From: a virus
Taxonomy: Duplodnaviria; Caudoviricetes
DNA length: 64,000 nt
Virus record (IMG/VR): IMGVR_UViG_3300021399_000113
Location: 32,001-96,000 of that record
Reading direction: 5' to 3' (one strand)
How positions within the stretch are numbered: the stretch's first letter is position 1; every line of letters begins with the position of its first letter. Of the stretch, positions 26,644-45,413 are shown piece after piece. A program made the translations under genes and the position numbers. The notes beneath the pieces were generated by a model. It was given only the letters and a program-made list of their open reading frames with translations. It was not told the DNA's origin and made no database searches.

Positions 26644-26651
26644 AAATTATA

Positions 26652-26689
26652 TAATATCCGCAGTAATTTCAATTTACTGCGGATATTTT
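26652..26689 (+). terminator. intrinsic terminator
   Basis: AATATCCGCAGTAA/TTACTGCGGATATT + Ts. Confidence 0.7.
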
Positions 26690-27535
26690 GAAATGGAGGG
26701 AAATTTATGATAAATCCCAATACCAAATTTTATAAGATTTTGACAAAAGGTGGACACTTTGGGAAAGACTACAGAGAGCTACTTTTTTATGTGTGTGGTA
26801 GAGATATATTTGAGGCTATGAACAGAGCTAAGAATATGGCTGGGGTTAAACACGATGCCACTGATTGTATTATTAAATGTACTGAGATAAGCAGAGAAGA
26901 ATATATAGCACAAAAAGTTAGTGGAAGAAGTGCTTACGACACATACAGACAATATGATGAAAGGGAGATTACTGAGTAATTATGATTACCAAAGAATGTT
27001 TTTGTGCAATTCTAAAATCCATTAAAAGTTTATCTGATAGAGAAGAACAATTAATATCTCTTAACTTACTTCCGATAGAGAATGGATGGGGAGATGATAT
27101 TGGTGCGCTCATTACAGCTCTTGGGAAAGAAACAGAGCCAAATCTTGCAGAAGATGTACGCAAGATTTGTGGTTACCTCGTAGATGGATTTATTTTTGAT
27201 TGGGATTGGGGCACTAAATACGCAGAAGATGATTATCTGATAAAAGTAGATGATGTAAAATATACCCCAAAAACGTTTGAAGAATTGTATGATGTAATTA
27301 TGATTGCCAGTAATACAGAGACAACAGATGGAAGAGACAACAACATATCGTGACATTATTAATAGTTTATCCAATGAAGATTTAGCAGATATTATAGTTA
27401 ATGGGGATATTATACACATGGCTTGCCTTGATTATTCTTGCACCCCCGATGAAGAAGATACTTGTGAAGGTTGTGTATTGAGATTACTTGAAAGACAAGT
27501 AGATGATGACAATCCACTTATAGTTAGGTGAGGGA

Positions 27536-32206: not shown

Positions 32207-33036
32207 TTAGTATTAATATGACATATAGGAGAACAAATCTTGGGAGATACAAGAGGTTACTTTGGAAGATATAATCGGTATATAGGCAAGGTAATGCACA
32301 TTGATAAAGGGCATAAATATGTGTATGGAGGCAAATCATCCGATGGCTATACCTTTCGAGTAATCCCAGATGACACTTTAATCACGGTCAATTACCAAAC
32401 ATTTCGTGAATACCTTCGTGAACGCAAAGTTATGGATATAATCGCAAGGATGTAAAGGAGTAAAAGATGCAAGTATATCCATTTAATAAACCTTCGTATC
32501 TGAAAGAACTTAACAGCTCTCCTACTGAAATTTCTGACACTCTTGTAAGGGAATGGGAAGAGGTAAAGAGTGCGGATGATACACTTGTTACCGCTTTGGA
32601 ACGTCTTATCGAAGTCCACGATGATAAGTATGAATTCCCTTATCTTTCCGCAGAAGAACGTACCAAAAAGGCAGAATTTCTTCTTTCGGAAGAGATAGAC
32701 AATATTATGAAAGGTAGACTGATATAATTGCCATGTGGAAATCCTTTAATCAAATTGTAAAAGACCTTAACGAAAGAGGGTCAATTCAAATTCCTAACGG
32801 ACATGTAACTGGCGAGGAATTTGAAAAGTGGCTTAGAGATGAGTCTAAAGGTAAACTGTCTACAGAGAAGAATACGAAAGGTATTGACATTATTCAATCT
32901 TTATGATATAATAATCAAGTCAGTTGAGTTGACAGTTGAGTTGATAATTTATGTTAGTCCTTAGCATAAGTTAGTAAACTCATAAGGACACTGTATATCA
33001 ACTGCACAAGTGCTGATTATTAGCTATAGTCAGCAC

Positions 33037-33108
33037 GATGGGTTAGTCAAGTGGTTAAGACACTGCCCTCTCACGGCAGAGACATGGGTTCGACCCCCAT
33101 ACCCATCA
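33037..33108 (+). tRNA. tRNA-Glu(CTC)
   Basis: Cloverleaf; CTGCC-CTCTCAC-GGCAG. Confidence 0.9.
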
Positions 33109-33139
33109 TTATGGTGGTACTTTTGAACACCTAATATTA

Positions 33140-33612
33140 TCGAATATGTGATGCTGTGAATATAGGCGGGAACAAGCAATGAGCAGATAATCTGCTCATA
33201 CCCCAACCTCGTTAGGGTGGCGCATGGACACTGCTCCTATGGCTGAAGGTGTCTATCACATATCTAACAAAATAAGGCATGACCGAGCCTGCCGTAATTT
33301 GGTTGAAACGATATATACCTACGGACGTGCTGATACGTATCAGATATTTTGTTAGCGTTACCTCATCTACCTGTACGTTAAACAGGGTGTTGGCATAAAG
33401 ATGGGGAAAAGTCGTAGTTATATCACACATTAAGGCAAATGAACTTGTGCCAAGTTCTACTACGTGATTTGTGTCTGATGTGGGGTAATAGGAAGTTGAT
33501 AGCGAACATCTGTATGGAATTGAGGCGCAATTTTAGGATGTGGTGTGGCTATGCAAACCAACTAATAGTGTTTAGGCATAGAGTAATGAACACACAGATT
33601 AGTAGCTATCGA
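33140..33612 (+). ncRNA. large multi-stem structured RNA candidate
   Basis: No credible ORF between two tRNAs; long-range stems ATATGTGAT/ATCACATAT, CTAACAAAATA/TATTTTGTTAG, GATAGC/GCTATC. Confidence 0.5.
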
Positions 33613-33628
33613 ATCTTATTATGATTAT

Positions 33629-33703
33629 GGTGTCTGTAACTTAAATGGATAAAGGGCAAGATTGTGACTCTTGAGGATGTAGGTTCGACTCCTACCAGAC
33701 ACC
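33629..33703 (+). tRNA. tRNA-His(GTG) with encoded G-1
   Basis: G-GTGTCTG/CAGACAC-C; CAAGA-TTGTGAC-TCTTG. Confidence 0.9.
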
Positions 33704-33744
33704 CTTAGAATTAAAAAATTGCATTGTATATGATAAATATCCGA

Positions 33745-33826
33745 GGGGTGGTCGCATAGTGGCAATTGCGGGGGACTGTAAATCCCTTGCCTCACGGCTT
33801 CGTAGGTTCGAGTCCTACCCGCCCCA
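33745..33826 (+). tRNA. tRNA-Tyr(GTA)
   Basis: GGGGA-CTGTAAA-TCCCT, variable arm. Confidence 0.92.
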
Positions 33827-34046
33827 TTAATAAGATGTTGACAAATTTAATAAAGTATGATATACTCTTATCAGAGTTGAGGCGAGGCAACCGTAGAACA
33901 ACGGAAGGCACAAGTAGCTTATATAAGACCATAAACCGACAAGGACAACTCTCACGCAAGGTCGCTCCTTGTTGCGTGTAATAAATGTGGACCAGCTCAT
34001 CAGCCTTGGAAGATGAACTACGGGGAGTGAATAGGCAAATGCATTA

Positions 34047-34119
34047 GCCACAATAACTCAATAGGTAGAGTAACTGATTTGTAATCAGTAAGTTGGGGGT
34101 TCAAATCCCTCTTGTGGCT
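34047..34119 (+). tRNA. tRNA-Thr(TGT)
   Basis: ACTGA-TTTGTAA-TCAGT. Confidence 0.92.
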
Positions 34120-34137
34120 TTTCTGTGGAGGTAAAAT

Positions 34138-34419
34138 ATGAGGTACGTAGTAAATGAAGATGTGTATGATGTAGAAGTAGGCGATTATGTCTATTATGCC
34201 AGAGCACTTGACAGCTTAAACATATTTGAGGTTGTTGAATATAAAGTACGTACAGTTGATGCTGATTATTTTGCTGGACTGTCTATGGACAGCAGTGCCA
34301 CATTATTTAGCCCTTCGGATATAGGAAAGACTGTCTTTTTTAATCAGAAAGATGCACAAGATGTTGTCAATACAAGGAAAGACAAGGGATTACGTATTGA
34401 CAAGGTTGAGGAAGAGTGA
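34138..34419 (+). CDS. hypothetical protein
   Basis: GGAGG RBS. Confidence 0.6.
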   Translation: MRYVVNEDVYDVEVGDYVYYARALDSLNIFEVVEYKVRTVDADYFAGLSMDSSATLFSPSDIGKTVFFNQKDAQDVVNTRKDKGLRIDKVEEE

Positions 34420-34437
34420 TATAATGTACTCATAAAC

Positions 34438-34510
34438 GTGCCCGTAGCTCAGTTGGTAGAGCATTCGACTTTTAATCGAAGGGTCGTGGGTTCAAATCCC
34501 ATCGGGCACA
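34438..34510 (+). tRNA. tRNA-Lys(TTT)
   Basis: TTCGA-CTTTTAA-TCGAA; promoter at 34397-34425. Confidence 0.93.
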
Positions 34511-34578
34511 TGTTACAAGTTTACGTCCGAGTACCTCCTGAAATTCCCTCTTGTGATATTTACAAGGGGGAATAATAT

Positions 34579-34650
34579 TGGGCTGTAGCCAAGTGGAAAG
34601 GCATGGGACTTTGACTCCCACATTCGCTGGTTCGAGTCCAGCCAGCCCAG
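34579..34650 (+). tRNA. tRNA-Gln(TTG)
   Basis: TGGGA-CTTTGAC-TCCCA. Confidence 0.92.
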
Positions 34651-34723
34651 TTTATTCATAAGGCAAACACGATTTATTCATAAGGCAAACACGATTTATT
34701 CATAAGGCAAACACGATTTATTC
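34651..34723. repeat. 22-bp tandem repeat x3.3
   Basis: TTTATTCATAAGGCAAACACGA repeated exactly. Confidence 0.95.
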
Positions 34724-34774
34724 TTGATTATTGCTTGGTGATAATTCGCAACTTAGTTGCAAAGTGAGGTATAA

Positions 34775-35434
34775 ATGAAAGCTGACAATTCTCCTAAAAG
34801 CCTAATATGCTACAAAGAGGGTAGAACCTATAAGTGGGTTGTATCTACTGAGGGTAATGAACAAAGTCTCCTATATCTTCTGATGATAAACCCTAAAATT
34901 CAGTTAGAATCTATAATTATCATCCCTATATTTGGGCTGTCTTTTGTAGGAGCTGTTCGTATGGGGTCTCAGAAGAAATTTGAGTTCTACGATTTCTTTA
35001 AGGAATATGGAGAAGCACCGACAATTACTACAAAATTTAATCGTGAAGCGGTAGCTCGTAAATTGTCTCAGATAGCAGAGAAATCAAAAACGAACAAAGA
35101 GGAAGTAGTAGTAGAAGACATTGTAAAGACTGTGTGCCATGAAAAGTATGGATTTATTTCACCCGATGGTGAGTATTATCGGTGTGAGTTCATGGGGCAT
35201 GGAGACTTAGCGTTTGACATTTGTGACGAACACAATTTCCCATATCTTAATTCTGCTGAGACTTATCTTGAAGAGCATGGTTGGTGTAAGGTGTATAATC
35301 CATGTGATAATATCCACAAATACGCTGTATATGTTGGAGGGGATTTTGTACTTACAAAAGAGCAGTTTGAAGTGCTTCAGAAAGAGGGACTTGAAAATGC
35401 ATATTATGTATCTGAGTATCTGGTAAGAGATTAA
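34775..35434 (+). CDS. hypothetical protein
   Basis: 219-aa ORF; GFISPDG...GH..LA motif. Confidence 0.65.
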   Translation: MKADNSPKSLICYKEGRTYKWVVSTEGNEQSLLYLLMINPKIQLESIIIIPIFGLSFVGAVRMGSQKKFEFYDFFKEYGEAPTITTKFNREAVARKLSQIAEKSKTNKEEVVVEDIVKTVCHEKYGFISPDGEYYRCEFMGHGDLAFDICDEHNFPYLNSAETYLEEHGWCKVYNPCDNIHKYAVYVGGDFVLTKEQFEVLQKEGLENAYYVSEYLVRD

Positions 35435-35515
35435 GGTGTCTATCCGAATGGTGAGGGGGCTGTTTGCTAAACAGTTGGGCGAAATGCTTTGCGAGTTCGA
35501 ATCTCGTGGACACCG
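35435..35515 (+). tRNA. tRNA-Ser(GCT)
   Basis: GCTGT-TTGCTAA-ACAGT, variable arm, G73. Confidence 0.8.
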
Positions 35516-35655
35516 CTTAGAAGGAAAACTAACCAAACCTATTGCGTAGGCTGGAGATAAATCCATAGAGGTCTAACCACTCAGTACCAGTGAAAATCAG
35601 AATCTGAGGAACTTCAGTACATGTGTACTGCGTAAGGGGATTGCGCCCCTTGTAT

Positions 35656-35727
35656 AGATGCTTGGTGTAGAAGGTAGCACAAGGGTCTCCAAAACCTTTA
35701 GCGTGGGTTCGAATCCTCCAGCATCTG
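35656..35727 (+). tRNA. tRNA-Trp(CCA)
   Basis: AGGGT-CTCCAAA-ACCTT. Confidence 0.88.
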
Positions 35728-35732
35728 CTTTT

Positions 35733-35804
35733 GTTCCTATAGTTTAACGGATAAAATAATGGACTACGAATCTGTTGATACAAGTTCGATTCTTGTTGGG
35801 AACA
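35733..35804 (+). tRNA. tRNA-Arg(ACG)
   Basis: ATGGA-CTACGAA-TCTGT. Confidence 0.85.
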
Positions 35805-35809
35805 TTTAC

Positions 35810-35881
35810 ATCTCCGTAGTCTAATGGATAGGCAACGCTCTTCTAAAGCGTCTTATGTGAGTTCGAGCCTCATCGGAGATA
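35810..35881 (+). tRNA. tRNA-Arg(TCT)
   Basis: ACGCT-CTTCTAA-AGCGT. Confidence 0.88.
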
Positions 35882-35900
35882 TTTTTACAATTAAATATTT

Positions 35901-36027
35901 GGGCTGGTAGCCGAATCGGTATAGGCGGTAGCATTGCGAAAAATCAGTGTAGTCGATTAGACTGATACAGCAATTATCAAATGCATCATGGAGCTACTAT
36001 TTATGGGTTCAAGTCCCATCCAGCCCG
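35901..36027 (+). ncRNA. tRNA body with ~55-nt insert in the anticodon arm
   Basis: GGGCTGG/CCAGCCC, D and T arms intact; GTAGC/GCTAC stem encloses CAGCAATTATCAAA. Confidence 0.7.
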
Positions 36028-36029
36028 TT

Positions 36030-36148
36030 GGAAGGGTGGTGTAGTGGTAACACACGTATTATAAGTAGTTTAGTTGATTTACTACGTCTGCAATTATCAA
36101 AATTAGCCTGTTACGCTCGTGTCGAAGGTTCGATTCCTTCCCCTTCCG
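36030..36148 (+). ncRNA. tRNA-Asn(GTT)-like body with ~48-nt insert in the anticodon stem
   Basis: GGAAGGG/CCCTTCC; CG[insert]AGC-CTGTTAC-GCTCG; insert contains CTGCAATTATCAAA. Confidence 0.7.
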
Positions 36149-36227
36149 TTTTACCCCCCCCCCAAATAATGGAGTTGACAAATTTACTGAGATGTGGTAT
36201 ACTCTTCCACAAGTGAGGTACAGAGAT

Positions 36228-36797
36228 ATGAATAAATCGAGAAACATAGTATTTCTTGATGTGGATGGAGTATTAAACGGATATGACAGATTTTGGTATG
36301 CTATCTTCTGTCTGTTTAAAGTCACTAAATCAAAGAAGCTAATGGATTATTGGCACACCCATCTTGGATGCAGTGCATGGGCACATAAAGTATTTTACTT
36401 ATCAATTATAACACATTTAACACACTCAGACGTGGTATTATCTTCTTGCTGGAGAATGCGGTGGGAAACACACAATTCTCCAAAAAGAATGCGATTAAAG
36501 AAACTATTTAAGAGATTTGGTGTAAATGTGGTTGATACAACTATTCAGAAATATCTAAATGGTCGTGGGGAAGAAATCTCTTTATGGTTATCAGAACATG
36601 GTAATCCTAAAAATTACATTATTATTGATGATGAAACTTGTGACCAGTTAGAACACCTTGACCACATCATAAAAACAAGAAATCCTAAACTTGCAAATAC
36701 CGATATGATACAAGGCGGTGTTTCTGAAAAGACTGGATTAAGAGTACATCATATATTCAAAGCCATTCGGTTAATGAGATATTGGAGTAAGAAATAA
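36228..36797 (+). CDS. HAD-family phosphatase (Swiss-army-knife RNA-repair type)
   Basis: FLDVDGVLN, VLSSCWR, RGEEI..WL, YIIIDD. Confidence 0.8.
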   Translation: MNKSRNIVFLDVDGVLNGYDRFWYAIFCLFKVTKSKKLMDYWHTHLGCSAWAHKVFYLSIITHLTHSDVVLSSCWRMRWETHNSPKRMRLKKLFKRFGVNVVDTTIQKYLNGRGEEISLWLSEHGNPKNYIIIDDETCDQLEHLDHIIKTRNPKLANTDMIQGGVSEKTGLRVHHIFKAIRLMRYWSKK

Positions 36798-36850
36798 GGT
36801 ATTGACAAATTCAATATTTTGTGATACAATGTCCTTGTTGTGAAGGACAT

Positions 36851-36938
36851 GGTGGGATAGCCTAATTGGTAAGGCACTTGCACTGAAAGCAAGCGTTACG
36901 TTAATAGCGTATTGGGGGTTCGAATCCCTCTCCCATCG
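36851..36938 (+). tRNA. tRNA-Ser(TGA), atypical A32/C33
   Basis: CTTGC-ACTGAAA-GCAAG, long variable arm. Confidence 0.82.
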
Positions 36939-36948
36939 TTAGCCCATT

Positions 36949-37022
36949 GCCGTATTAGACAAGTCAGGTTAAGCCTGCGGACTGCAACTCCGTGACCGCT
37001 GGTTCGAATCCAGCATACGGCT
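36949..37022 (+). tRNA. tRNA-Cys(GCA)
   Basis: GCGGA-CTGCAAC-TCCGT, U73. Confidence 0.88.
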
Positions 37023-37026
37023 TGTA

Positions 37027-37088
37027 ACGATGTTAACCGCAAATACACAAATGGTTGACTGCAAATCAATAAACTATAAACACATCGT
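37027..37088 (+). ncRNA. CHGCAA-motif hairpin with Cys-type anticodon stem-loop
   Basis: ACGATGT/ACATCGT; CCGCAA; TTGA-CTGCAAA-TCAA. Confidence 0.55.
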
Positions 37089-37102
37089 GGAGGATGAAAA
37101 TT

Positions 37103-38596
37103 ATGGGATTTTATGAAGAACTTACAAAGGTTGCTAACAATGTAGCAGTAACTGAAAATGGAGCAATTGCGTATCGTACAAGTGGCTCTGCCCTTGTTGA
37201 TATGAACTTTGAAGTATCTGCATTCCGCAATAACGTAACAGCGGGTGTAGATATGTTCAAGAGAGCATACGCAGAAAATCCTAAGCTTGCTGTGCTTTAC
37301 CTCTTCTATCTCAGAGATTGCAGAGGTGGTCTTGGTGAACGTAATACCTTTAGAAACTGTTTTGCATGGCTTGCAAATAACCATGTAAATATGGCTAAGG
37401 CTGTACTTTCACTCATTTCTGAATATGGTAGATGGGATGACCTTGTAGCCCTTGTTGATACAAAGGTTAAGAAGGATGCCCTCGCTATCGTTTCAACACA
37501 GTTAAAGGCTGATATTGACAACATGAAGAATGGTAAGAGCATTTCTTTGCTTGCAAAGTGGATGCCCTCTATCAATACTTCTTCAAATAAGACACGTGCA
37601 CTCGCCAGAGTAATCTGCCGTGAGTTCATGAATATGCCTTATTCTGAGTACAGAAAGACTCTTGCTAAGTTGAGAGCATATACCAATGTCGTAGAGACAA
37701 AGATTTCCGCTAACAAGTGGGATGAAGTAGATTACAACACTGTTCCCTCTATGGCAAATCTGAAGTACAAGAATGCTTTCCTTAAGCATGATACTGACAG
37801 AAGAACCGCTTACCTTGAAGCACTCGTAAAGGGTGACTCCAACGTTAAGATTAACGCAAGTACCCTTACTTGTGTTGACATTGTAGATAAGTACAGTGAT
37901 GGTCGTAGTTACTGGAATGGCTCTGTAAAGAGCGACTTAGACGTAACCCTTGAGGAACTTTGGAAGGCACTTCCGTCTTTCAGTGTTGAAGATACTGTTG
38001 TAGTGAGGGATGGCTCTGGTTCTATGATTGGCACACCTCTCACTGTTGCTACTGCACTTGCAGTTTATACTGCACAGCACAACAAGGGTGAGTTCAAGGA
38101 TAAGTATATCACCTTCTCTGCTGACCCTCGTGTAATTGACATCTCCAAGTGCTCAACACTTCATGATGCCCTCATTAGGTCTTACAGAGAGGACGATTGC
38201 TCCAATACAAATCTGAAGAAGGTATTTCGTCTTATCCTTGATACAGCACGTATGAACAAGTATAAGAATGAAGACCTTCCTAAGAATATCCTCGTTATCT
38301 CTGATATGCAGTTTGACGCTGGCTACATGGCTATGCCTCTCATGTCAGAAATCGAGTTGGAGTACAGACAGTACGGATATGACCTTCCTAAGTTGATTTT
38401 CTGGAATGTTGCTGGTAGTGTGAACAGAACTATTCCTGTAACTGTCAACAAGAATGGTGTAATCCTTATCTCTGGATATACTCAGTCCCTTCTTAAGATG
38501 GTAATGTCCAACGAGACAGACCCTTACAAGGCACTTGTGGCAACCCTTGCTACCGAGAGATACAAAGCGGTAGCGGATGCCCTTGACCTTGTATAA
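37103..38596 (+). CDS. DUF2828-like Ro60/TROVE-related protein with C-terminal vWA domain
   Basis: TENGA, RDCRGGLGER, EYGRWDDL, LAKWMPS, Y..VPS.A, MIDAS DGSGSM, ISDMQFD, IFWNV. Confidence 0.85.
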   Translation: MGFYEELTKVANNVAVTENGAIAYRTSGSALVDMNFEVSAFRNNVTAGVDMFKRAYAENPKLAVLYLFYLRDCRGGLGERNTFRNCFAWLANNHVNMAKAVLSLISEYGRWDDLVALVDTKVKKDALAIVSTQLKADIDNMKNGKSISLLAKWMPSINTSSNKTRALARVICREFMNMPYSEYRKTLAKLRAYTNVVETKISANKWDEVDYNTVPSMANLKYKNAFLKHDTDRRTAYLEALVKGDSNVKINASTLTCVDIVDKYSDGRSYWNGSVKSDLDVTLEELWKALPSFSVEDTVVVRDGSGSMIGTPLTVATALAVYTAQHNKGEFKDKYITFSADPRVIDISKCSTLHDALIRSYREDDCSNTNLKKVFRLILDTARMNKYKNEDLPKNILVISDMQFDAGYMAMPLMSEIELEYRQYGYDLPKLIFWNVAGSVNRTIPVTVNKNGVILISGYTQSLLKMVMSNETDPYKALVATLATERYKAVADALDLV

Positions 38597-38706
38597 AAAT
38601 AAGGTATTGACTTTTTGAAAAAAGTGTTGTATATTATTATATGACACTTGAAGAACAAAAGAGGTAAATCGGCAAGGTTCAGATAACCAACCTCCCCTTG
38701 CGACAT

Positions 38707-38780
38707 TCCCCTTTAGCTCAGTTGGTCAGAGCGAGTGGCTGTTAACCACTATGTCGTAGGTTCGATTCCTACAGGGGGAG
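38707..38780 (+). tRNA. tRNA-Asn(GTT)
   Basis: AGTGG-CTGTTAA-CCACT. Confidence 0.93.
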
Positions 38781-38782
38781 CT

Positions 38783-38890
38783 GAGGCATTCACTGCAAAT
38801 TCTTCTAAAACAAATGGGATAAAGAAGAAAATGATTTGTGTTGTTATTGCCAGACATTTCAAAGGTAACATCTATCGCTGTTTGTGCCTC
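38783..38890 (+). ncRNA. CHGCAA-motif hairpin
   Basis: GAGGCA-TTCA-CTGCAA...TGCCTC. Confidence 0.45.
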
Positions 38891-39023
38891 GTTTAAACAG
38901 TGGATTACTGATGGTGTTCTGAGGGCAACACAATCGACCTCTTATTATGAATCCGCTAATAGTAATAAGAGCCGTTAGGTTACTCACCAACATTGATTTA
39001 GTCGGATTTACCATCCGACACCA

Positions 39024-39096
39024 CGGGGTGTGGCGCAAATGGTAGCGCACGTGCTTTGGGAGCATGGGGTTGTGGGTTCGAGTCCCGTCACTCCGA
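39024..39096 (+). tRNA. tRNA-Pro(TGG)
   Basis: CGTGC-TTTGGGA-GCATG. Confidence 0.93.
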
Positions 39097-39108
39097 CTTA
39101 AAAATCAT

Positions 39109-39185
39109 CGGTGTATTAGTGTAGTTGGTCTAACACGTCTGCCTTGCAAGCAGAATGTCGTGGGTTCGAGTCCCACATGCATCCA
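39109..39185 (+). tRNA. tRNA-Ala(TGC) with irregular acceptor stem
   Basis: TCTGC-CTTGCAA-GCAGA; 3' ...TCCA, 5' CGG. Confidence 0.82.
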
Positions 39186-39497
39186 CGTGGCTGACAATAT
39201 TCTTATATCGGAAAGCCCTGCGTAGTGGGAGCTAAATAGATAGAGGGTGGCAACCTTAATAGCTCAACATTGCTTATCGTAATACGTCCCAAGTACAATG
39301 AATAAAAGGTAAGCAAATGTTGTAATCCGCAAGATGTGTCATGCGGTATAAAAATTATGAAACATCCTCTATGGGTATCGGGATATGAAAGGTGAATCCA
39401 CCCACATAGAGTGAACCCAAAAGCCCATGATATTATTGGACTATGCGTGAATGTCCCTTTGAGGGGCTAAAAAATATCTGAAACGCTTGGTGATATT

Positions 39498-39579
39498 GGG
39501 GGATTGGTGGAATTGGCAGACACACGGGATTTAAGCTCCCGTGGAACAATCCGTGTGGGTTCAAGTCCCACATCCCTCA
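39498..39579 (+). tRNA. tRNA-Leu(TAA)
   Basis: CGGGA-TTTAAGC-TCCCG. Confidence 0.92.
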
Positions 39580-39585
39580 GTTATA

Positions 39586-39923
39586 AAGACAGTTACTGCA
39601 ATCACATTGCAAAGTTATTTAAGGAAATAATACCATTGATGTTCTACGTGTCCAACGTACCGCATTAAACGCAAACAAACTGTCTTGATATTTAATGATT
39701 TTGATTTTTAATTTTAATTAATTTAACGATACATACAGCAACTATTACACAAGCCTTTCACTTTTAATGAAAAACAGCTAAGAAACGTATCGTGTATTAT
39801 TTAACTAACTTTTAATTTAATTTTTAGATTACTTAAAACGACAGCATCAGCAACACAAACATCTTTCCTATTTATAATTTATAATTCCACAAATTACGAA
39901 AAGGGCGAATGAAAAACTGTCGT
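39586..39923 (+). ncRNA. three tandem CHGCAA-motif hairpins (39586-39686, 39726-39793, 39838-39923)
   Basis: AAGACAGTT/AACTGTCTT, ACGATAC/GTATCGT, ACGACAG/CTGTCGT; each 5' arm followed by CTGCAA or CAGCAA; AT-rich spacers. Confidence 0.6.
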
Positions 39924-39936
39924 GTATATTGATTAT

Positions 39937-40010
39937 TGCAGGGTGGCGCAAAAGGTTAGCTCAGTGGACTCATAATCCAAAGGTTGGGGGTTCAAATCCC
40001 TCCCCTGCAA
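39937..40010 (+). tRNA. tRNA-Met(CAT), initiator-like acceptor
   Basis: TGCAGGG/CCCTGCA; TGGA-CTCATAA-TCCA. Confidence 0.85.
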
Positions 40011-40051
40011 CTTGCACGTAACTGTGCTAAACCTTATTTTTATTCAATATA

Positions 40052-40097
40052 AAAGCATCTATCGTTTTAGTGTACTATTGCGGTAGGTGTTTTTTTT
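40052..40097 (+). terminator. intrinsic terminator ending the RNA island
   Basis: GCATCTATCG/CGGTAGGTGT + T run. Confidence 0.6.
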
Positions 40098-40155
40098 CTA
40101 TTGACAAATCCACTAAATTGGTATATAATGTATCTATACGTGGAGGAATGAAAAA

Positions 40156-40473: not shown

Positions 40474-41199
40474 ATGAAAAAGTATTTCGTATTTTCAGAC
40501 GTGCATGGATATTTTGATATATTGGATAAAGCACTTAAAGATAGAGGATTTGACAAGGATAATCCAGACCACATCATAATCTCTTGTGGTGATTTGTTAG
40601 ACAGAGGAAGACAGCCAAGAGAATGTTTAGAGTTTGTAATGGGCATTCCAGAAGATAGACGTATCTTGGTTATGGGAAATCATGATGACCTCTTATGGAC
40701 GCTACTTATGACAAGAAATCCTCATATACACGATATTACGAATGGCACTGTAGATACAGTCATTGATTTCGTAGGAAGAAATGTTAATAACAAAGAAAAG
40801 TATTCACTGCTTGATGCTGACCTTGTTGACATGAAAGAAGACCCTTTGTGGAAGAGTTACTACAATGCGCTTGTGCCTTATGCAGAAGTTGGAGATAGGA
40901 TATTTGTTCATGGATGGTTACCATCCCTTGATTATAAGAATGCTACTTTTAGAGACTGGCGAGATGCTATGTGGCTTAATGGCATGAGAGAGTGGTTTGA
41001 AGATTATCAACTTGCTGACAAAACAATCTTTTGTGGACACTGGCACACATCTTGGGGGCACTATTACATACACAAGATAGGGTCAGAGTGGGACGAAGAT
41101 GCTTGTTTTGATGTATTTGAAGATAAAGGGATAGTTGCTCTCGATGCTTGCACAGCACATTCTCAAAAAATTAACGTTTATACATTTGAAACAGAATAA
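40474..41199 (+). CDS. metallophosphoesterase (protein-phosphatase-like)
   Basis: SDVHG, GDLLDRG, GNHD, FVHG, CGHWH. Confidence 0.85.
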   Translation: MKKYFVFSDVHGYFDILDKALKDRGFDKDNPDHIIISCGDLLDRGRQPRECLEFVMGIPEDRRILVMGNHDDLLWTLLMTRNPHIHDITNGTVDTVIDFVGRNVNNKEKYSLLDADLVDMKEDPLWKSYYNALVPYAEVGDRIFVHGWLPSLDYKNATFRDWRDAMWLNGMREWFEDYQLADKTIFCGHWHTSWGHYYIHKIGSEWDEDACFDVFEDKGIVALDACTAHSQKINVYTFETE

Positions 41200-41214
41200 A
41201 CTGTTGGAGGTACT

Positions 41215-42519
41215 ATGGATTTACTATTAAAGATTGCAAACAGAATACAAGAATGTGGTGGAGAAATTTTCTATGTTGGTGGATATGTCAGAGACAAGAT
41301 TATCGGAAAGCCCAATAAGGACATTGATGTAGAAATCTACAATATCACACCAGATGACCTTAAATCCATCTTGGCTGAATTCGGTGAGGTGCAGACTATT
41401 GGTAAATCCTTTGGTATCTACAACATTAAAGGGTTGGATATTGATTTTGCTCTTCCTCGTACAGAAACAGCTACTGGTAGAGGGCATAAGGATTTTGAAG
41501 TATTTGTTGACCCATTCATCGACAAGAAGACCGCTTGCTCAAGAAGAGATTTTACCATGAATGCTCTGATGGAGAATGTAAATACTGGTGAAGTTTTAGA
41601 TTTCTTTGGTGGCAGAGAAGATATTAATAATAAAATAATTAGGCACGTTTCTGATGAAACTTTCAGTGAAGACCCCTTAAGAGTATTAAGGGCTTGTCAG
41701 TTTTCATCAAGATTCGGATTTGAAATTGCTGAAGAAACAAAGGAACTTGCACGTAAAGCTGACCTTACAGCACTTCCTTCTGAGCGTATCTTTGAGGAAA
41801 TTAAAAAGGCGCTTACTAAATCAAAAAAGCCCTCAATCTTTTTTAATGCGCTAAAGGAAATGGGGTATGAATATTTATTCCCAGAGTTATACAGACTTGA
41901 CAGAATTGAACAGTCTGCTGATTATCATCCAGAGGGAAATGTATATGTACATACAATGTGTGTACTTGATAGCCTTGCAGAACTTGGTTATCATGATTTA
42001 AAACTTATGTTATCAGCCCTCTGTCATGATATGGGCAAGTATGAGGCACATACATTTGATGGAAAGAAGCATCACTTCTACAACCATGAGAGCGTTGGGT
42101 TGCCTATTGCAGAAGCATTTCTTTCAAGACTTACCAATGAGACAGAAATTCATAAATATGTGCTTGATATGGTTAAGAACCACATGAGGATTCATCAATC
42201 ATTAAAATCTAAAAAGCCAAAGGTGTGGAATAGAATTTTTGATGAATCTATTGCTCCCTCAATGCTTATTGAGTTATCTTTTGCTGATACGCTTAACAAA
42301 GATAAGTATGAGCACCTTAAGGCAATCGAGTGGTATACAAAATACAGTAACCACTGTCAGGATGATAAACAGTTACAGGGTAAAGATTTGGTAGCGTTAG
42401 GATATAAGCCCAGCCCAAGATTTACCGATATTTTGAACTTTGCTCATGGTTTATGGTTGAGCATGACACCTTATGACCAGATAGTTAAAGCAGTTACAAA
42501 GGAATTTCCTATTGACTAA
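41215..42519 (+). CDS. cca: CCA-adding tRNA nucleotidyltransferase with HD domain
   Basis: VGGYVRD, DIDVE, RRDFTMNA, EDPLRVLR, ERI..E, YHPEG, HDMGK. Confidence 0.92.
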   Translation: MDLLLKIANRIQECGGEIFYVGGYVRDKIIGKPNKDIDVEIYNITPDDLKSILAEFGEVQTIGKSFGIYNIKGLDIDFALPRTETATGRGHKDFEVFVDPFIDKKTACSRRDFTMNALMENVNTGEVLDFFGGREDINNKIIRHVSDETFSEDPLRVLRACQFSSRFGFEIAEETKELARKADLTALPSERIFEEIKKALTKSKKPSIFFNALKEMGYEYLFPELYRLDRIEQSADYHPEGNVYVHTMCVLDSLAELGYHDLKLMLSALCHDMGKYEAHTFDGKKHHFYNHESVGLPIAEAFLSRLTNETEIHKYVLDMVKNHMRIHQSLKSKKPKVWNRIFDESIAPSMLIELSFADTLNKDKYEHLKAIEWYTKYSNHCQDDKQLQGKDLVALGYKPSPRFTDILNFAHGLWLSMTPYDQIVKAVTKEFPID

Positions 42520-42560
42520 TTTAACTATTTATGTTATCATAAGATATGTGGAGGAATATT

Positions 42561-43544
42561 ATGTTAGATATTAACTTTTTGAATGAAAAAGAATACGACT
42601 TTCTCCGAACAGATAAACGTTTAGGTGATAACGTACATATTTTAGCATTTGGTGGTTCTCATGCTTATGGTACAAATGTGCCCACCAGTGATATTGATGT
42701 GCGTGGAATAGCCTCAAATTCTATTGATGATGTTATTCTCAATAAAGGATTTGAAGAGATTACTGATAACACAACAGATACTGTTATTTATTCTGTTGAG
42801 AAGATGTTTAGACTTCTTGCACAGTGTAACCCTAATACCATTGAAATCGTTGGTGTAAAGGACTACCTTAAAGTTGATGAAATCGGAAAGATGATTCTTG
42901 ATAACAAGAGTATCTTCCTTTCCAATGCTTGCACAAGAACATTTGGTGGATATGCTACACAGCAGTTATATCGTTTAAGACAGAAAACACTCAATGCGCT
43001 TGAAGAAGATGAACTTGAGCGTCATATCGCTAAGGTTTTAAATGAGATGGATAAATACATCAAAGAGAACTTTGGCATCTCGGATTATAGGGTTTACTAT
43101 GACACAGAGCTTAAAATTGATATGCCAGCCGTTAAAGGATTTCCAATGGAAAAACTTTATGATTATCTTAATACTCTCAACTGTGTGGTTAGGGATTATC
43201 ATAAGCGCTCTGTCAGAAATGAAAAGGCTATTGCCCATAACAAGATTAACAAACATGCTATGCATCTTCTCAGACTGTTTATGATGGAAGAAGATTTACT
43301 GCTTAGGGGTGAGGTAATCACCTATCGAGAGAAAGAGCATGACTTGCTTATGGCAATTAGAAATGGAGAGTTTTACGATACTGAAAGTGGACAGATGACA
43401 GCAGAATTCTTCAAATTGTTAGAGGATTATGAGAAGAGAGTTGAATATGCAAAAGAGCACTCAATTCTCCCTAACAAGCCTAACATGAAAGCCATTGATA
43501 AGTTACAGTTGGATATTTTCAATAAAAGGTTGGAGATGAGATGA
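42561..43544 (+). CDS. RlaP/YcgL-like nucleotidyltransferase
   Basis: GGSHAYGT..PTSDIDVRG, NPN.IE, KHAMHLLRL, L..IRNG. Confidence 0.8.
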   Translation: MLDINFLNEKEYDFLRTDKRLGDNVHILAFGGSHAYGTNVPTSDIDVRGIASNSIDDVILNKGFEEITDNTTDTVIYSVEKMFRLLAQCNPNTIEIVGVKDYLKVDEIGKMILDNKSIFLSNACTRTFGGYATQQLYRLRQKTLNALEEDELERHIAKVLNEMDKYIKENFGISDYRVYYDTELKIDMPAVKGFPMEKLYDYLNTLNCVVRDYHKRSVRNEKAIAHNKINKHAMHLLRLFMMEEDLLLRGEVITYREKEHDLLMAIRNGEFYDTESGQMTAEFFKLLEDYEKRVEYAKEHSILPNKPNMKAIDKLQLDIFNKRLEMR

Positions 43545-44869
43545 TAACAGAGATAACACCTATCAGCTTATTCTTTAATGTATTAGACCATATAGTTGGT
43601 ACAAACAATAAAAAGAATTACATACAGCAGTATGCTACCGAAGATATAAAATACGTTATGCAGTGGCTATACGATACCAGTATAGTCACTGGCATTTCTG
43701 ACAGTAAGTATGACAAAGAGGTTGAAGAGGTTCAGCCTTATAAGACCTTAAAAGAATTGTTCTTATACCTTAGCAAGAGGCATACTGGGAGTGATTATGA
43801 TATATCTGTGGTTAAATCCACAGCAAAGCAACTGTGTAAATGTGAGACTGATTTCAAATTCTTTAAATCATTATTAACTAAAAATGTAAAGGTTGGAATT
43901 GACAGTAAGTTAATAAATTCGGTATTTCCGAATTTAATTCCGACCTTTGATGTGATGTTGGCTGATAAATACCTTGATTTAGATGATAAGCAATTAAATA
44001 AAGTATCTAATAATGGCACAAGGGAATTTGTACTACAAGAAAAGTTGGATGGATTTAGGTGCATTGCTATTAAAGAGGGTGAAAGCGTTAGACTTATTTC
44101 CAGACAAGGTAAGTTGTATGAGAATTTAGTTGATGTAGAATCTGCTATTATCAAGACATTTAAGGGATATGACTGTGTACTTGATGGAGAACTTCTAATA
44201 TCTAACAGAGAGAATATTCCAAGCAAAGAACAGTACAAAGCCACGTCAAAGTTGGTAACCCTTAAAGATGTGGAAATTAAAGGAATTACATATAACGTAT
44301 TTGATTTATTACCAATTACTGATTGGCAGAATAAAGTTGGTAATAAACCTTACGATGATAGATACAGCACGTTATGTTCTTATATGGCTAAAAACACCAG
44401 CAATGCCATTAAAATCGTCCCTTGCTTATATCGTGGTAACAATCTCGATGAAGTATTAACAAGGCTTAAAATAGCCAAAGAAATGAACTGGGAAGGGTTA
44501 ATGCTGAGGTGGGTAGACTCCCTTTATGAATTTAAACGTAGCAAAGAATTACTAAAAGTTAAGCCCTTTAATGAAATGGATTTAATCATTACTGGGTATG
44601 AAGAAGGAACTAATAAAAACAAAGGAAAACTTGGTGCATTTATATGTGAGGTAGAACACCCTAAATTTGGTCATATTGAAGCCAAAGTAGGTGGTGGATA
44701 TTCTGATGAAGAAAGAGAGAGATTCGCAGAAATCCGTAATGATTTAATTGGAAGAACTATTGAAGTGCAATACTTTGAGGTTACTGAAAATACTACAACA
44801 CATATTAAGTCATTAAGATTTCCTGTATATAAATGTATAAAAGACATAGGAGTTGTACCAAACAACTAA
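43541..44869 (+). CDS. ATP-dependent DNA ligase
   Basis: MLA, EKLDGFR, LDGEL, VFD, EGLM, LLKVK, VGGG, SLRFP. Confidence 0.93.
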   Translation: MITEITPISLFFNVLDHIVGTNNKKNYIQQYATEDIKYVMQWLYDTSIVTGISDSKYDKEVEEVQPYKTLKELFLYLSKRHTGSDYDISVVKSTAKQLCKCETDFKFFKSLLTKNVKVGIDSKLINSVFPNLIPTFDVMLADKYLDLDDKQLNKVSNNGTREFVLQEKLDGFRCIAIKEGESVRLISRQGKLYENLVDVESAIIKTFKGYDCVLDGELLISNRENIPSKEQYKATSKLVTLKDVEIKGITYNVFDLLPITDWQNKVGNKPYDDRYSTLCSYMAKNTSNAIKIVPCLYRGNNLDEVLTRLKIAKEMNWEGLMLRWVDSLYEFKRSKELLKVKPFNEMDLIITGYEEGTNKNKGKLGAFICEVEHPKFGHIEAKVGGGYSDEERERFAEIRNDLIGRTIEVQYFEVTENTTTHIKSLRFPVYKCIKDIGVVPNN

Positions 44870-44879
44870 GGAGCATAAA

Positions 44880-45413
44880 ATGATTTGGATTACGAGTGAT
44901 TTACATCTCTGTCATGACAGAGATTTTATTTATGGAAAGCGTGGTTACAAGAACGTTCAAGAGATGAACCACGATATTGTGAAAAAGTGGGACGCAAAAG
45001 TAAAGGCTGAGGATACTGTCTATGTGCTTGGTGATGTAATGCTGAATGATGATAATACTGGACTTGGTATATTATCATCATTAAAGGGTAAAATACATAT
45101 CATCATAGGTAACCATGATACAGATAACAGAATAACAATGTATAAGCGTTGTTATAATGTAGAAGATGTAGTGTATGCAGACAGAATTAACTACAATGGC
45201 TACACCTTCTTCTTAAGCCACTATCCCACATTAACTGACAATCATGATGTGTCAAGACCATTAGAAAAGTGTGTATTAAATCTTTTTGGTCATACACATT
45301 CCACAGATAAGTTCTATGAGGGAAATTCTCATATGTACAATGTAGCATGGGATGCTCATCATGATTTGATTTCATTAGACACAATTATCGAAGACATTAA
45401 AAATGCGAGGTAA
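44880..45413 (+). CDS. calcineurin-like phosphoesterase
   Basis: SDLHLCH, LGD, GNHD, SHYP, FGHTH. Confidence 0.85.
   Translation: MIWITSDLHLCHDRDFIYGKRGYKNVQEMNHDIVKKWDAKVKAEDTVYVLGDVMLNDDNTGLGILSSLKGKIHIIIGNHDTDNRITMYKRCYNVEDVVYADRINYNGYTFFLSHYPTLTDNHDVSRPLEKCVLNLFGHTHSTDKFYEGNSHMYNVAWDAHHDLISLDTIIEDIKNAR

What the first reader, a model, noticed from the sequence alone, without database searches (positions are those of the whole stretch)
35901..39923. Ro60/TROVE-like protein surrounded by a family of CHGCAA-motif RNAs, some displaying bare anticodon loops
Seen: five hairpins (37027-37088, 38783-38890, 39586-39686, 39726-39793, 39838-39923) share one plan. Each has a 6-9 bp closing stem whose sequence varies with compensatory changes, then C(A/T/C)GCAA 1-4 nt after the 5' arm, then a variable A-rich interior. 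Two interiors hold isolated anticodon arms: TTGA-CTGCAAA-TCAA (Cys) and TTTCA-CTTTTAA-TGAAA (Lys). The same motif, as CWGCAATTATCAAA, occurs inside two tRNA bodies at 35901-36148. One hairpin abuts the RBS of the DUF2828-like vWA gene. Known: Ro60/Rsr binds the stem of Y RNAs and is linked to RNA repair; Lys anticodon loops are targets of PrrC-type nucleases. Inference: a candidate undescribed RNP in which the protein loads many Y-like RNAs that act as anticodon-nuclease decoys or adaptors, with possible autoregulation of its own mRNA.
Basis: partly seen in the sequence, partly recalled or inferred. Interest (0 to 1): 0.88.

Follow-up and report, generated by a model that had tools for sequence, protein, structure and literature searches.

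The report
Partner RNAs of phage Ro60-like protein
A gut phage's tRNA gene cluster encodes a ring-shaped Ro60-like protein surrounded by small RNAs that share one conserved "handle" and display tRNA parts. This protein-RNA pairing recurs in very different phages, is in no RNA catalogue I could search, and is probably a new kind of Y-RNA-like particle acting on tRNAs during infection.

Summary
A covariance model built only from other phages picks four of the five hairpins as the four best matches in the whole 64-kb window. The fifth fits the plan by eye but not the model. The two "tRNAs" at 35901-36148 carry the same module, capped by a small loop, inside the anticodon arm.

The module is a 7-bp helix, a 3-nt linker ending in A, then C(A/U/C)GCAA. 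I call it the handle.

- In 80 unrelated viral loci with a DUF2828 gene, CAGCAA is the most enriched non-coding 6-mer (394 seen, 34 expected, 31 on the other strand).
- 135 of 150 DUF2828 loci carry handles on the gene's strand.
- 12 of 12 near-complete viral records found by the handle pattern alone encode DUF2828.
- A control pattern gave DUF2828 in 1 of 117 loci.

The protein's predicted fold matches only Ro60 structures over its full length.

The handle RNAs are most likely Y-RNA-like partners of this Ro60 paralogue, carrying tRNA-derived cargo. The anticodon-nuclease decoy role and autoregulation remain untested. Papers speculate that Y RNAs lie near these genes but define no RNA family. 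Rfam has none. The handle closely matches Dictyostelium Class I RNAs. Earlier agents of this scan found the same system on other DNA.

The parts
35901..36027 (+). tRNA-shaped RNA with a capped handle (helix AUCAGU/ACUGAU, then A-CAGCAAUUAUCAAA) inserted in the anticodon arm. Its anticodon region is irregular.
   Evidence: Rfam tRNA 47.2 bits with a 57-nt insert. ARAGORN does not call it. Fold z-score -3.2. The same embedded topology occurs in many other loci.
36030..36148 (+). tRNA-shaped RNA with a capped handle (GUAGU/ACUAC, then GU-CUGCAAUUAUCAAA) inserted in the 5' strand of the anticodon stem. It keeps a 3-bp stem with a 7-nt loop CUGUUAC (Asn GUU-like).
   Evidence: Rfam tRNA 44.6 bits with a 61-nt insert. 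Fold shows the AGC-CUGUUAC-GCU arm. Same architecture as L037:3373 and others.
36192..36797 (+). HAD phosphatase of the 'Swiss Army Knife' RNA-repair type (context gene)
   Evidence: Pfam PF18143 HAD_SAK_2, E 6e-17
36802..36830 (+). Sigma-70-like promoter ahead of tRNA-Ser, tRNA-Cys, handle RNA 1 and the DUF2828 gene
   Evidence: TTGACA-17-TACAAT, 11 of 12 matches
37026..37089 (+). Open-handle RNA: stem ACGAUGU/ACAUCGU, linker UAA, CCGCAA. Cargo is a Cys (GCA) anticodon-arm mimic. Its 3' G begins the ribosome-binding site of the DUF2828 gene.
   Evidence: R1 34.1 bits, E 8e-7; fold
37094..38596 (+). Ro60-fold protein (DUF2828 alpha-solenoid plus DUF7788 vWA domain with a full MIDAS motif). The likely start is the ATG at 37103.
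   Evidence: Pfam PF11443 and PF25043, both about E 2e-37. PHROG 850 'RNA-binding protein', E 4e-116. AlphaFold2 pLDDT 80.5. The top 12 listed Foldseek PDB rows (ranks 1-13; rank 11 not printed) are all Ro60/TROVE. D306, S308, S310, T372 and D404 are invariant.
38607..38635 (+). Sigma-70-like promoter ahead of tRNA-Asn, the probable handle RNA, three more tRNAs and handle RNAs 3 to 5
   Evidence: TTGACT-17-TATATT, 10 of 12 matches
38782..38891 (+). Probable open-handle RNA with a long (76-nt) interior: GAGGCAU/GUGCCUC, linker UCA, CUGCAA, 3' G
   Evidence: Sequence and fold. Not supported by R1 (2 bits). No homologue among the fetched loci. A 161-nt contig of a gut metatranscriptome covers 38794-38954.
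39585..39687 (+). Open-handle RNA: AAGACAGUU/AACUGUCUU, linker A, CUGCAA. The cargo is three hairpins.
   Evidence: R1 20.7 bits, E 0.006. Fold z-score -4.9.
39725..39794 (+). Open-handle RNA: ACGAUAC/GUAUCGU, linker AUA, CAGCAA. Cargo is a Lys (UUU) anticodon-arm mimic.
   Evidence: R1 42.3 bits, E 4e-9, the best match in the window and in the whole 138.6-kb record
39837..39924 (+). Open-handle RNA: ACGACAG/CUGUCGU, linker CAU, CAGCAA. The cargo is an AU-rich hairpin.
   Evidence: R1 19.8 bits, E 0.011. Fold z-score -2.4.
40474..45413 (+). Context: RNA end-healing and sealing genes. They are a metallophosphoesterase, a CCA-adding enzyme (PolyA_pol head plus HD), an RlaP nucleotidyltransferase, an ATP-dependent ligase and a second phosphoesterase.
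   Evidence: Pfam; PHROGs

Best explanation
The gene at 37094-38596 encodes a Ro60-type ring protein: an alpha-solenoid plus a vWA/MIDAS domain, of the DUF2828 family.

The small RNAs around it are its Y-RNA-like partners. Each has two parts.

1. A constant handle: a 7-bp helix followed on its 3' side by single-stranded NNA-C(A/U/C)GCAA. This is the inferred docking site for the protein. It would play the part of the conserved stem and GNCGAA/GGUCCGA motif that Ro60 recognises in Y RNAs.
2. A variable cargo made of tRNA parts: a bare anticodon stem-loop, a circularly permuted tRNA body (as in YrlA), or a whole tRNA into whose anticodon stem a loop-capped handle is inserted.

The RNAs are transcribed with the phage tRNAs from sigma-70-like promoters and would be cut out of the precursor.

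Inferred function: the particle uses its tRNA-like cargo to engage enzymes or nucleases that recognise tRNAs. It would thereby guard, repair or quality-control the tRNA pool while the host attacks it. This fits the neighbouring end-healing, CCA-adding and ligase genes.

Shown: the fold, the RNA family, the two topologies, and the two-way co-occurrence. Inferred: direct binding, processing, and the biological role.
For: Fold: AlphaFold2 model, pLDDT 80.5. The top 12 listed Foldseek rows (ranks 1-13; rank 11 not printed) are Ro60/TROVE structures aligned over about 500 columns, E 1e-9 to 2e-5. They include the Thermus phage phiLo Ro60, which binds two upstream Y-like RNAs (PMC12135203). MIDAS residues are invariant.

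RNA family:
- CAGCAA is the top non-coding 6-mer in 80 DUF2828 loci: 394 observed, 34 expected, 31 on the minus strand, present in 80 of 80 loci.
- The surrounding consensus is A-A-G-A-C-R-C-N-N-A-CAGCAA-W-U-U-U.
- Element lengths peak at 55-65 nt.
- All 7 closing pairs show changes on both sides, and 97-99% of cells are paired.
- All 66 R1 matches in 80 genome-collection loci are on the gene's strand.

From protein to RNA: 135 of 150 loci carry at least one handle. Handle-like sites number 560 on the gene's strand and 34 on the other.

From RNA to protein:
- A handle pattern scanned over IMG/VR gave DUF2828 inside 43 of 119 fetched stretches.
- It gave DUF2828 in 26 of 49 further whole records, including 12 of 12 records at least 90% complete.
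- A control 14-mer containing CAGCAA gave 1 of 117, and that one was a real handle RNA.

Breadth: R1 matches lie beside the gene in Felix O1, Listeria P100, Enterococcus EFDG1, Bacillus PBC2, Campylobacter CP30A, a Staphylococcus phage and mycobacteriophage Archie. Archie has no tRNA gene annotated within 5 kb.

Modularity: the same helix plus CAGCAA occurs open (cargo in the loop) and capped (embedded in a tRNA).

Expression, from the literature: in the P100-like phage CKA15 three non-coding regions within 2 kb upstream of the Ro-like gene are among the most transcribed in the genome. The protein is also found in virions (PMC12282133). In P100 a consensus promoter sits directly before three tandem handle RNAs.

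Phenotype, from the literature: deleting the Ro60-like gp130 of the Felix O1-type phage Bas63 sensitises it to the Ppl defence (PMC11482910).
Against: - No direct evidence that the protein binds the handle.
- The protein does not match Pfam TROVE by sequence, and sequence searches of the PDB find nothing.
- 15 of 150 DUF2828 loci showed no handle within about 4 kb. One of eight named phages (Vibrio phi-ST2) gave no clear match.
- Three large but incomplete motif-bearing records had no DUF2828 match.
- In this window the motif is less constant than elsewhere (CAGCAA, CUGCAA, CCGCAA), and one of the five hairpins fails the model.
- The most transcribed region reported for CKA15 (26,236-26,727) maps to a stretch of P100 without CAGCAA. 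Published expression therefore cannot yet be assigned to the handle RNAs.
Confidence: 0.72

Rival explanations
1. Decoy reading. The handle RNAs display anticodon loops as baits. They soak up or mislead host anticodon nucleases (PrrC, RloC, colicin-like, PARIS-type), and the Ro-like ring stabilises or presents them. This refines the best explanation rather than excluding it.
For: Anticodon-arm-like hairpins with U33 and a purine at position 37 occur in 87 of 197 elements, against about 16 after shuffling the interiors. The window's mimics (Cys GCA, Lys UUU, Asn GUU) each have a true phage tRNA with the same anticodon in the cluster. The neighbourhood holds RNA-repair genes. The Bas63 homologue counters a defence system (PMC11482910).
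Against: The anticodons are spread over at least ten amino acids, with no focus on known nuclease targets. Many members have no anticodon-like cargo. Ppl, the one defence linked by experiment, is described as an ATPase plus PHP phosphoesterase proposed to attack DNA, not tRNA (PMC11482910). There is no cleavage or protection assay.
Confidence: 0.2
2. Repair-scaffold reading. The ring captures broken tRNA ends, and the tRNA-like cargo recruits end-healing, CCA-adding and ligase enzymes. The particle would be a platform for tRNA repair, as proposed in general terms for ROT/TROVE proteins.
For: In the window the gene sits among HAD_SAK_2, two metallophosphoesterases, a CCA-adding enzyme, an RlaP nucleotidyltransferase and an ATP-dependent ligase. 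[quoted passage not shown]
Against: In several phages with the protein and RNAs (Archie, CP30A, the Staphylococcus phage) no ligase or healing gene lies in the 10-kb neighbourhood shown. The ligase here scores best as a DNA ligase.
Confidence: 0.25
3. The elements are cis-acting parts of the tRNA/DUF2828 transcripts: processing signals, spacers, or a 5'-UTR operator for autoregulation. On this reading they are not free partner RNAs.
For: They lie inside polycistronic tRNA transcripts. 108 elements in 150 loci end 0-100 nt before the start codon. Hairpin 1 overlaps the ribosome-binding site.
Against: In Felix O1, the Staphylococcus phage and Archie they lie downstream of the gene. Loci hold up to 11 copies, and many copies are over 1 kb from the gene. 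The handle also occurs capped inside whole tRNAs. In P100 the three tandem copies have their own promoter and are followed by a hairpin before the gene.
Confidence: 0.1
4. Decayed tRNA genes or chance hairpins with no link to the protein.
For: They sit among tRNA genes and carry tRNA fragments. My simple stem-plus-motif scan of the window alone is not specific.
Against: The handle is conserved across phages of four bacterial phyla. The strand bias is strong (560 against 34), the covariance-model matches are significant, and 12 of 12 complete records carry the protein. The control pattern gave 1 of 117.
Confidence: 0.02

Closest known systems
Ro60 (Rsr) with Y RNAs, especially bacterial and mycobacteriophage YrlA (Rfam RF02553; Chen et al. 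2014, PMC4201824)
   Same: A ring protein with a vWA domain. Small RNAs are encoded beside the gene. A terminal helix carries a short conserved motif near the 5' strand (GNCGAA in YrlA). The cargo mimics tRNA, and the long members here have the same T arm, closed acceptor hairpin and D arm order as YrlA (L011:7655-7727 scores 42 bits on RF02553).
   Different: The protein belongs to the DUF2828 family, not TROVE, by sequence. The motif is NNA-CAGCAA placed after the helix. Many copies occur per genome. Cargo includes bare anticodon loops, which YrlA lacks, and whole tRNAs with a capped handle. No window element reaches the YrlA threshold: the best is 27.8 bits against 69, across two adjacent tRNA-shaped genes.
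Thermus phage phiLo Ro60 with Yrl1 and Yrl2 (PMC12135203; PDB 9KOP, 9L5Y)
   Same: A phage-encoded Ro60-fold protein with partner RNA genes directly upstream. These are the best structural matches to the window's protein. Binding is shown there by EMSA and cryo-EM.
   Different: The phiLo protein is a canonical Ro60. Its RNAs carry a CGAA motif in an internal bulge and no tRNA parts. It is reported to form a complex with host PNPase.
Dictyostelium Class I (and II) RNAs (PMC7919456; PMC3188802)
   Same: Almost the same plan. A short terminal stem (5-6 bp) varies by compensatory changes. An unpaired conserved motif lies right after the 5' arm (printed as CCTTACAGCCAA, with the 8-mers CTTACAGC and CCTTACAG). 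The interior is variable, the median length is about 60 nt, the start is AAG and the end is CUGU. The phage consensus is AAG-A-C-R-C-W-W-A-CAGCAA ... GUCUU-G, often CUUACAGCAA.
   Different: They are eukaryotic, transcribed from DUSE promoters, and reported as confined to Dictyostelia. Their known direct binder is an RRM protein, Rnp1A/CIBP. No tRNA-like cargo is reported. I could not test whether a DUF2828 protein is involved there.
Published guesses for the same protein family: Listeria phage CKA15_055 (PMC12282133) and Bas63 gp130 (PMC11482910)
   Same: The same protein family, judged from its position next to the tRNA genes, its Ro60 or Rsr likeness, and P100/A511-type and Felix O1-type phages matching my query. 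Both papers suggest that nearby RNAs may be Y RNAs.
   Different: Neither paper defines the RNAs, the handle or its distribution. The Bas63 paper suspects annotated tRNA genes. The CKA15 paper suspects three highly transcribed regions.

Membership tests
Ro60 / TROVE proteins | Matches the TROVE domain (Pfam PF05731) by sequence | tested here: not met
   Pfam gives only DUF2828 and DUF7788. phmmer and a profile search against PDB sequences find nothing.
Ro60 / TROVE proteins | Alpha-helical repeat ring followed by a vWA domain (fold) | tested here: met
   AlphaFold2 model, pLDDT 80.5, pTM 0.74. Foldseek ranks 1-13 (12 rows printed) are all Ro60/TROVE over about 500-580 columns, probability 1.0, TM 0.33-0.58.
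Ro60 / TROVE proteins | MIDAS motif (DxSxS ... T ... D) in the vWA domain | tested here: met
   D306, S308, S310, T372 and D404 are invariant in 26 homologues.
Ro60 / TROVE proteins | Binds Y RNA on the outer surface of the ring | not testable with these tools
   Inferred only, from two-way co-occurrence.
YrlA (Rfam RF02553) | Reaches the family's gathering score (69 bits) | tested here: not met
   Best in the window is 27.8 bits at 35974-36083, bridging two adjacent tRNA-shaped genes. Chen et al. warn that dimeric tRNAs can score on this model. Best in the related loci is 42 bits.
CAGCAA-handle RNAs (family defined here, model R1) | 7-bp helix, 3-nt linker, CNGCAA, and a significant R1 match | tested here: met
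   Four window elements at E 4e-9 to 0.011. The fifth is not met. The two embedded copies are seen by sequence only, because R1 models the open form; the weak match at 35957-36013 has E 8.8.
tRNA (Rfam RF00005), for 35901-36148 | Cloverleaf above the gathering score with a normal 7-nt anticodon loop closed by a 5-bp stem | tested here: inconclusive
   Scores of 47.2 and 44.6 exceed 29 bits, but with 57- and 61-nt inserts in the anticodon arm. ARAGORN makes no call. The second keeps a 3-bp stem plus an Asn-like loop. Decoding ability is unknown.
Dictyostelium Class I RNAs | Terminal 5-6 bp stem, CCUUACAGCAA-type unpaired motif after the 5' arm, length about 42-65 nt | tested here: met
   By comparison with the published descriptions. 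In the window only the CNGCAA core and the linker A are kept.
Dictyostelium Class I RNAs | DUSE promoter about 60 nt upstream; dictyostelid origin | tested here: not met
   Bacterial sigma-70-like promoters in a phage record.

The most novel reading that the evidence does not exclude
The helix-plus-CAGCAA handle is the universal docking element of the DUF2828 branch of Ro60-like proteins, from phages to eukaryotes. If so, the long-unexplained Class I RNAs of Dictyostelium would be Y-RNA analogues of a DUF2828-type protein. [quoted passage not shown] The phage versions would use the same handle to present anticodon loops or whole tRNAs as baits, sensors or adaptors in the conflict over tRNA cleavage.
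Probability: 0.3. Interest if true: 0.9.

Novelty: new variant of a known kind. Interest (0 to 1): 0.78.

Why it matters
Ro60-Y RNA particles are known from animals, some bacteria and a few phages. The DUF2828 proteins found in hundreds of phage genomes (709 of 50,697 records) have no defined RNA partner.

A defined handle gives three things:
- a way to annotate many "empty" spacers in phage tRNA clusters;
- a concrete binding hypothesis that can be tested in model phages (A511/P100, Felix O1/Bas63, mycobacteriophages of cluster L);
- a modular RNA scaffold that nature has fused to tRNA parts in two circular permutations.

It also links a counter-defence phenotype (Bas63 gp130 against Ppl) and abundant unexplained phage transcripts (CKA15) to a specific RNA family. 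And it offers a testable explanation for the Dictyostelium Class I RNAs.

Tried and rejected
I could not fetch the 94%, 75% and 61% identical relatives, so the window's own variants, above all hairpin 2, have no close-relative test.
- The JGI metagenome scan with the protein found no relative. The single-protein scan of IMG/VR gave one locus.
- blastn of the region against GenBank phages matched only tRNAs.
- Rfam has no family for the elements, in the window or in six related loci. I rejected the YrlA match across two adjacent tRNA-shaped genes as an effect of dimeric tRNAs.
- Laying three gut metatranscriptomes gave only short Logan contigs over parts of 37.0-39.9 kb at 90-100% likeness. These cannot show ends, strand or level, and DNA carry-over is possible, so I do not count them as expression evidence.
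- A search for longer (fused or eukaryotic) homologues returned three unnamed proteins. It gave no help on Dictyostelium.
- Papers on DDB_G0281243 beyond the preprint: none found.
- The simple stem-plus-motif scan of the window had many chance hits.
- The idea that the CKA15 top-expressed region (26,236-26,727) equals the handle RNAs is rejected. It maps to P100 locus positions about 4490-4981, which hold no CAGCAA.
- I did not use complex prediction, because it does not take RNA.

Full report
**What the window is.** The window lies in a 138.6-kb IMG/VR virus record, CheckV completeness 83%. Bases 33,000-40,100 are a phage tRNA cluster with 17 ARAGORN tRNAs, all on the + strand. Several genes are interleaved with or follow the tRNAs:
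- a HAD phosphatase of the RNA-repair type (36192-36797);
- a 500-aa DUF2828 plus DUF7788 protein (37094-38596);
- downstream, a metallophosphoesterase, a CCA-adding enzyme, an RlaP nucleotidyltransferase, an ATP-dependent ligase and a second phosphoesterase.

Strong sigma-70-like promoters at 36802 and 38607 precede the two tRNA/small-RNA runs. The nearest homologues sit on contigs binned with gut Lachnospiraceae, Clostridia and other gut bacteria.

**Checking the observation.** All seven elements are present. In register, each of the five hairpins has the same plan: one unpaired base, a 7-bp stem, a 3-nt linker (ending in A in four of the five; CAU in 39837-39924), C(A/U/C)GCAA, a variable interior, the 3' arm, then G. 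The closing stem appears in every minimum-free-energy fold.

On the window alone the pattern is not statistically convincing. A simple scan finds many 6-7-bp stems near CHGCAA by chance. So I looked elsewhere for independent evidence.

**An unbiased motif test in other phages.** A profile of 26 homologues retrieved 80 IMG/VR loci whose DUF2828 proteins are 45-52% identical to the window's. I masked ORFs and tRNAs and counted every 6-mer in what remained.
- CAGCAA came first: 394 observed, 34 expected, 31 on the opposite strand, and present in all 80 loci.
- The context is strongly conserved: A-A-G-A-C-R-C-N-N-A-CAGCAA-W-U-U-U.
- For 234 of 318 unique sites, the seven bases at positions -10 to -4 have a complement downstream. 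The element lengths peak sharply at 55-65 nt.
- In an alignment of 66 such elements, all seven closing pairs show changes on both sides, with 97-99% of cells paired. The pairing percentage is partly built in by how I picked the elements. The variety of pair types and the length peak are not.

**Testing the window with a model from other phages.** Model R1 was built from those 66 elements.
- 39725-39794 (E 4e-9)
- 37026-37089 (E 8e-7)
- 39585-39687 (E 0.006)
- 39837-39924 (E 0.011)

R1 aligns the Cys and Lys anticodon-arm mimics to the family's conserved inner hairpin. The fifth hairpin (38782-38891) has the right register (GAGGCAU / UCA / CUGCAA ... GUGCCUC-G), but its 76-nt interior and divergent stem give only 2 bits. 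I call it probable. Under the tool's default first-look filter, which scored 150 of 267 candidates, R1 found no further match outside the window in the 138.6-kb record.

**Two topologies of one module.** Many CAGCAA sites without a downstream partner instead follow a hairpin. Its 3' arm has the same AGACAC-type sequence, and a 3-7-nt loop caps the helix. The whole module is inserted in the 5' strand of the anticodon stem of an otherwise complete tRNA.

Other members (about 120-130 nt) have an open handle enclosing an anticodon arm, a T arm, an acceptor hairpin closed by a loop, and a D arm. This is the permuted order known from YrlA. One of them scores 42 bits on the YrlA model.

The window's 35901-36027 and 36030-36148 are of the embedded type.
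- Rfam's tRNA model aligns them with 57- and 61-nt inserts.
- Each insert holds a capped helix followed by C(A/U)GCAAUUAUCAAA.
- The second keeps a 3-bp stem with the loop CUGUUAC, an Asn GUU look-alike.

The same local structure survives circular permutation. That argues that helix plus CAGCAA is a self-contained unit, most simply a protein-binding handle.

**Link to the protein.**
- From protein to RNA: in 150 DUF2828 loci from IMG/VR and the genome collection, 135 have at least one handle on the gene's strand within about 4 kb, 3.7 on average and up to 11. Handle-like sites number 560 on that strand and 34 on the other. All 66 R1 matches in the 80 genome-collection loci are on the gene's strand.
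- From RNA to protein: scanning IMG/VR with AAGACNCNNACAGCAANTTT gave 119 stretches, and 43 contain DUF2828 within the fetched DNA. Of 49 further whole records, 26 encode it, including 12 of 12 that are at least 90% complete. Most of those lacking it are small fragments or proviruses, where a chance match is plausible.
- Control: the 14-mer CAGCAATTATCAAA gave 117 stretches of similar length, and only one holds DUF2828. That one is a genuine handle RNA with a Lys-like loop.
- Breadth: R1 finds elements directly beside the gene in Felix O1, Listeria P100, Enterococcus EFDG1, Bacillus PBC2, Campylobacter CP30A, a Staphylococcus phage and mycobacteriophage Archie. In Archie no tRNA gene is annotated within 5 kb, so the RNAs follow the protein gene rather than the tRNA cluster.

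**The protein.** By sequence it is DUF2828 plus DUF7788, PHROG 850 "RNA-binding protein". It matches neither Pfam TROVE nor any PDB sequence. An AlphaFold2 model (pLDDT 80.5) consists of an alpha-solenoid followed by an alpha/beta domain. The 12 Foldseek rows listed at ranks 1-13 are Ro60/TROVE structures aligned over the whole length. Isolated vWA domains follow. The MIDAS residues are invariant. GenBank annotators already label homologues "Ro-like RNA binding protein" or "RNA-binding protein".

**Cargo.** Anticodon-arm-like hairpins (a 4-5-bp stem and a 7-nt loop with U at the second position and a purine at the sixth) occur in 87 of 197 elements, against about 16 after shuffling the interiors. 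Some of these are T arms. The mimicked anticodons are diverse: Asn, Lys, Ser, Tyr, Ile, Phe, Cys, Thr, Pro, Met and Leu. In the window each mimic (Cys, Lys, Asn) has a real phage tRNA with the same anticodon. This fits a tRNA-directed role in general. It gives no special support to a Lys/PrrC-specific decoy.

**Position relative to the gene.** 108 elements in 150 loci end within 100 nt upstream of the start codon. In the window the element's last G starts the GGAGG site, and the functional start is probably the ATG at 37103. This shows frequent co-transcription. It does not show autoregulation, and in several phages the RNAs are downstream.

**What the literature adds.**
- Chen et al. 2014 define bacterial and phage YrlA and the GNCGAA motif.
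- The Thermus phage phiLo Ro60 binds two upstream Y-like RNAs and, with them, host PNPase.
- For the P100-like phage CKA15, the Ro-like protein is found in virions, and three non-coding regions within 2 kb upstream are among the most transcribed. The authors suggest these may be Y RNAs. In P100 a consensus promoter directly precedes three tandem handle RNAs. The one region for which the paper gives coordinates maps to a different, CAGCAA-free stretch.
- In Bas63, a Felix O1-type phage, deleting the Ro60-like gp130 sensitises the phage to the Ppl defence. The authors guess that some annotated tRNAs are Y RNAs.

None of these papers defines the handle family. My searches found no paper that does.

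**The amoeba resemblance.** I checked the papers. Class I and II RNAs have these features:
- median length about 60 nt;
- a 5-6-bp terminal stem that varies by compensatory changes;
- an unpaired conserved motif right after the 5' arm, printed as CCTTACAGCCAA with the 8-mers CTTACAGC and CCTTACAG; the near-invariant positions fit ..U..C..CAA;
- a start of AAG and an end of CUGU.

This matches the phage consensus closely. A pull-down with one Class I RNA recovered GuaB, NdkC, the RRM protein CIBP and a protein of unknown function, DDB_G0281243. I could not determine what that protein is.

**Verdict.** The RNP pairing is well founded on comparative grounds. The decoy and autoregulation ideas remain hypotheses. 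I rate this a new variant of a known kind: a Ro60-Y RNA particle with a different protein family, a different handle, many RNA copies per genome, and tRNA or anticodon-loop cargo in two circular permutations. This scan has found the same system before on other DNA, and I reached the same reading by my own tests.

Noticed in passing
window 39185-39496 (core about 39327-39453): A 312-nt non-coding gap between tRNA-Ala and tRNA-Leu. Rfam finds no match. A 172-nt gut metatranscriptome contig covers 39219-39390. Possibly another conserved phage RNA.
   Followed up: partly
window 38892-39023: A 132-nt spacer between the probable handle RNA and tRNA-Pro folds better than shuffled sequence (z -2.8) into a long irregular hairpin plus a 7-bp hairpin. 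No homologue among the fetched loci.
   Followed up: partly
window 21166-21519: Rfam group I intron match (53.6 bits, threshold 50) between ORFs 20470-21183 and 21566-22786. It looks like an intron-split gene.
   Followed up: no
window 37094 vs 37103: The first ATG of the DUF2828 ORF directly abuts the GGAGG site. The ATG at 37103 has normal spacing and is the more likely start.
   Followed up: partly
L202 (Listeria phage P100) 4427-5000: A consensus promoter is followed by about 500 nt of non-coding sequence. By mapping through record OR088597.1, this corresponds to the most transcribed region of phage CKA15 (26,236-26,727 in PMC12282133). It holds no CAGCAA handle, so it is a different, unidentified abundant RNA.
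   Followed up: partly
window 40474-45413: A compact set of RNA end-healing and sealing genes follows the tRNA cluster: a metallophosphoesterase, a CCA-adding enzyme with an HD domain, an RlaP nucleotidyltransferase, an ATP-dependent ligase and a second phosphoesterase. An N6/N4 DNA methylase follows at 45419-46636.
   Followed up: partly
window 35974-36083: The Rfam YrlA model gives 27.8 bits (E 0.005) across the 3' half of one tRNA-shaped gene and the 5' half of the next. This is a likely artefact of tandem tRNA-like genes, as Chen et al. warn.
   Followed up: yes
literature, PMC12282133: Mass spectrometry detected the Listeria phage homologue (CKA15_055) in purified virions (20 peptides, 57% coverage). 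The protein may therefore be delivered with the DNA and act at the very start of infection.
   Followed up: no
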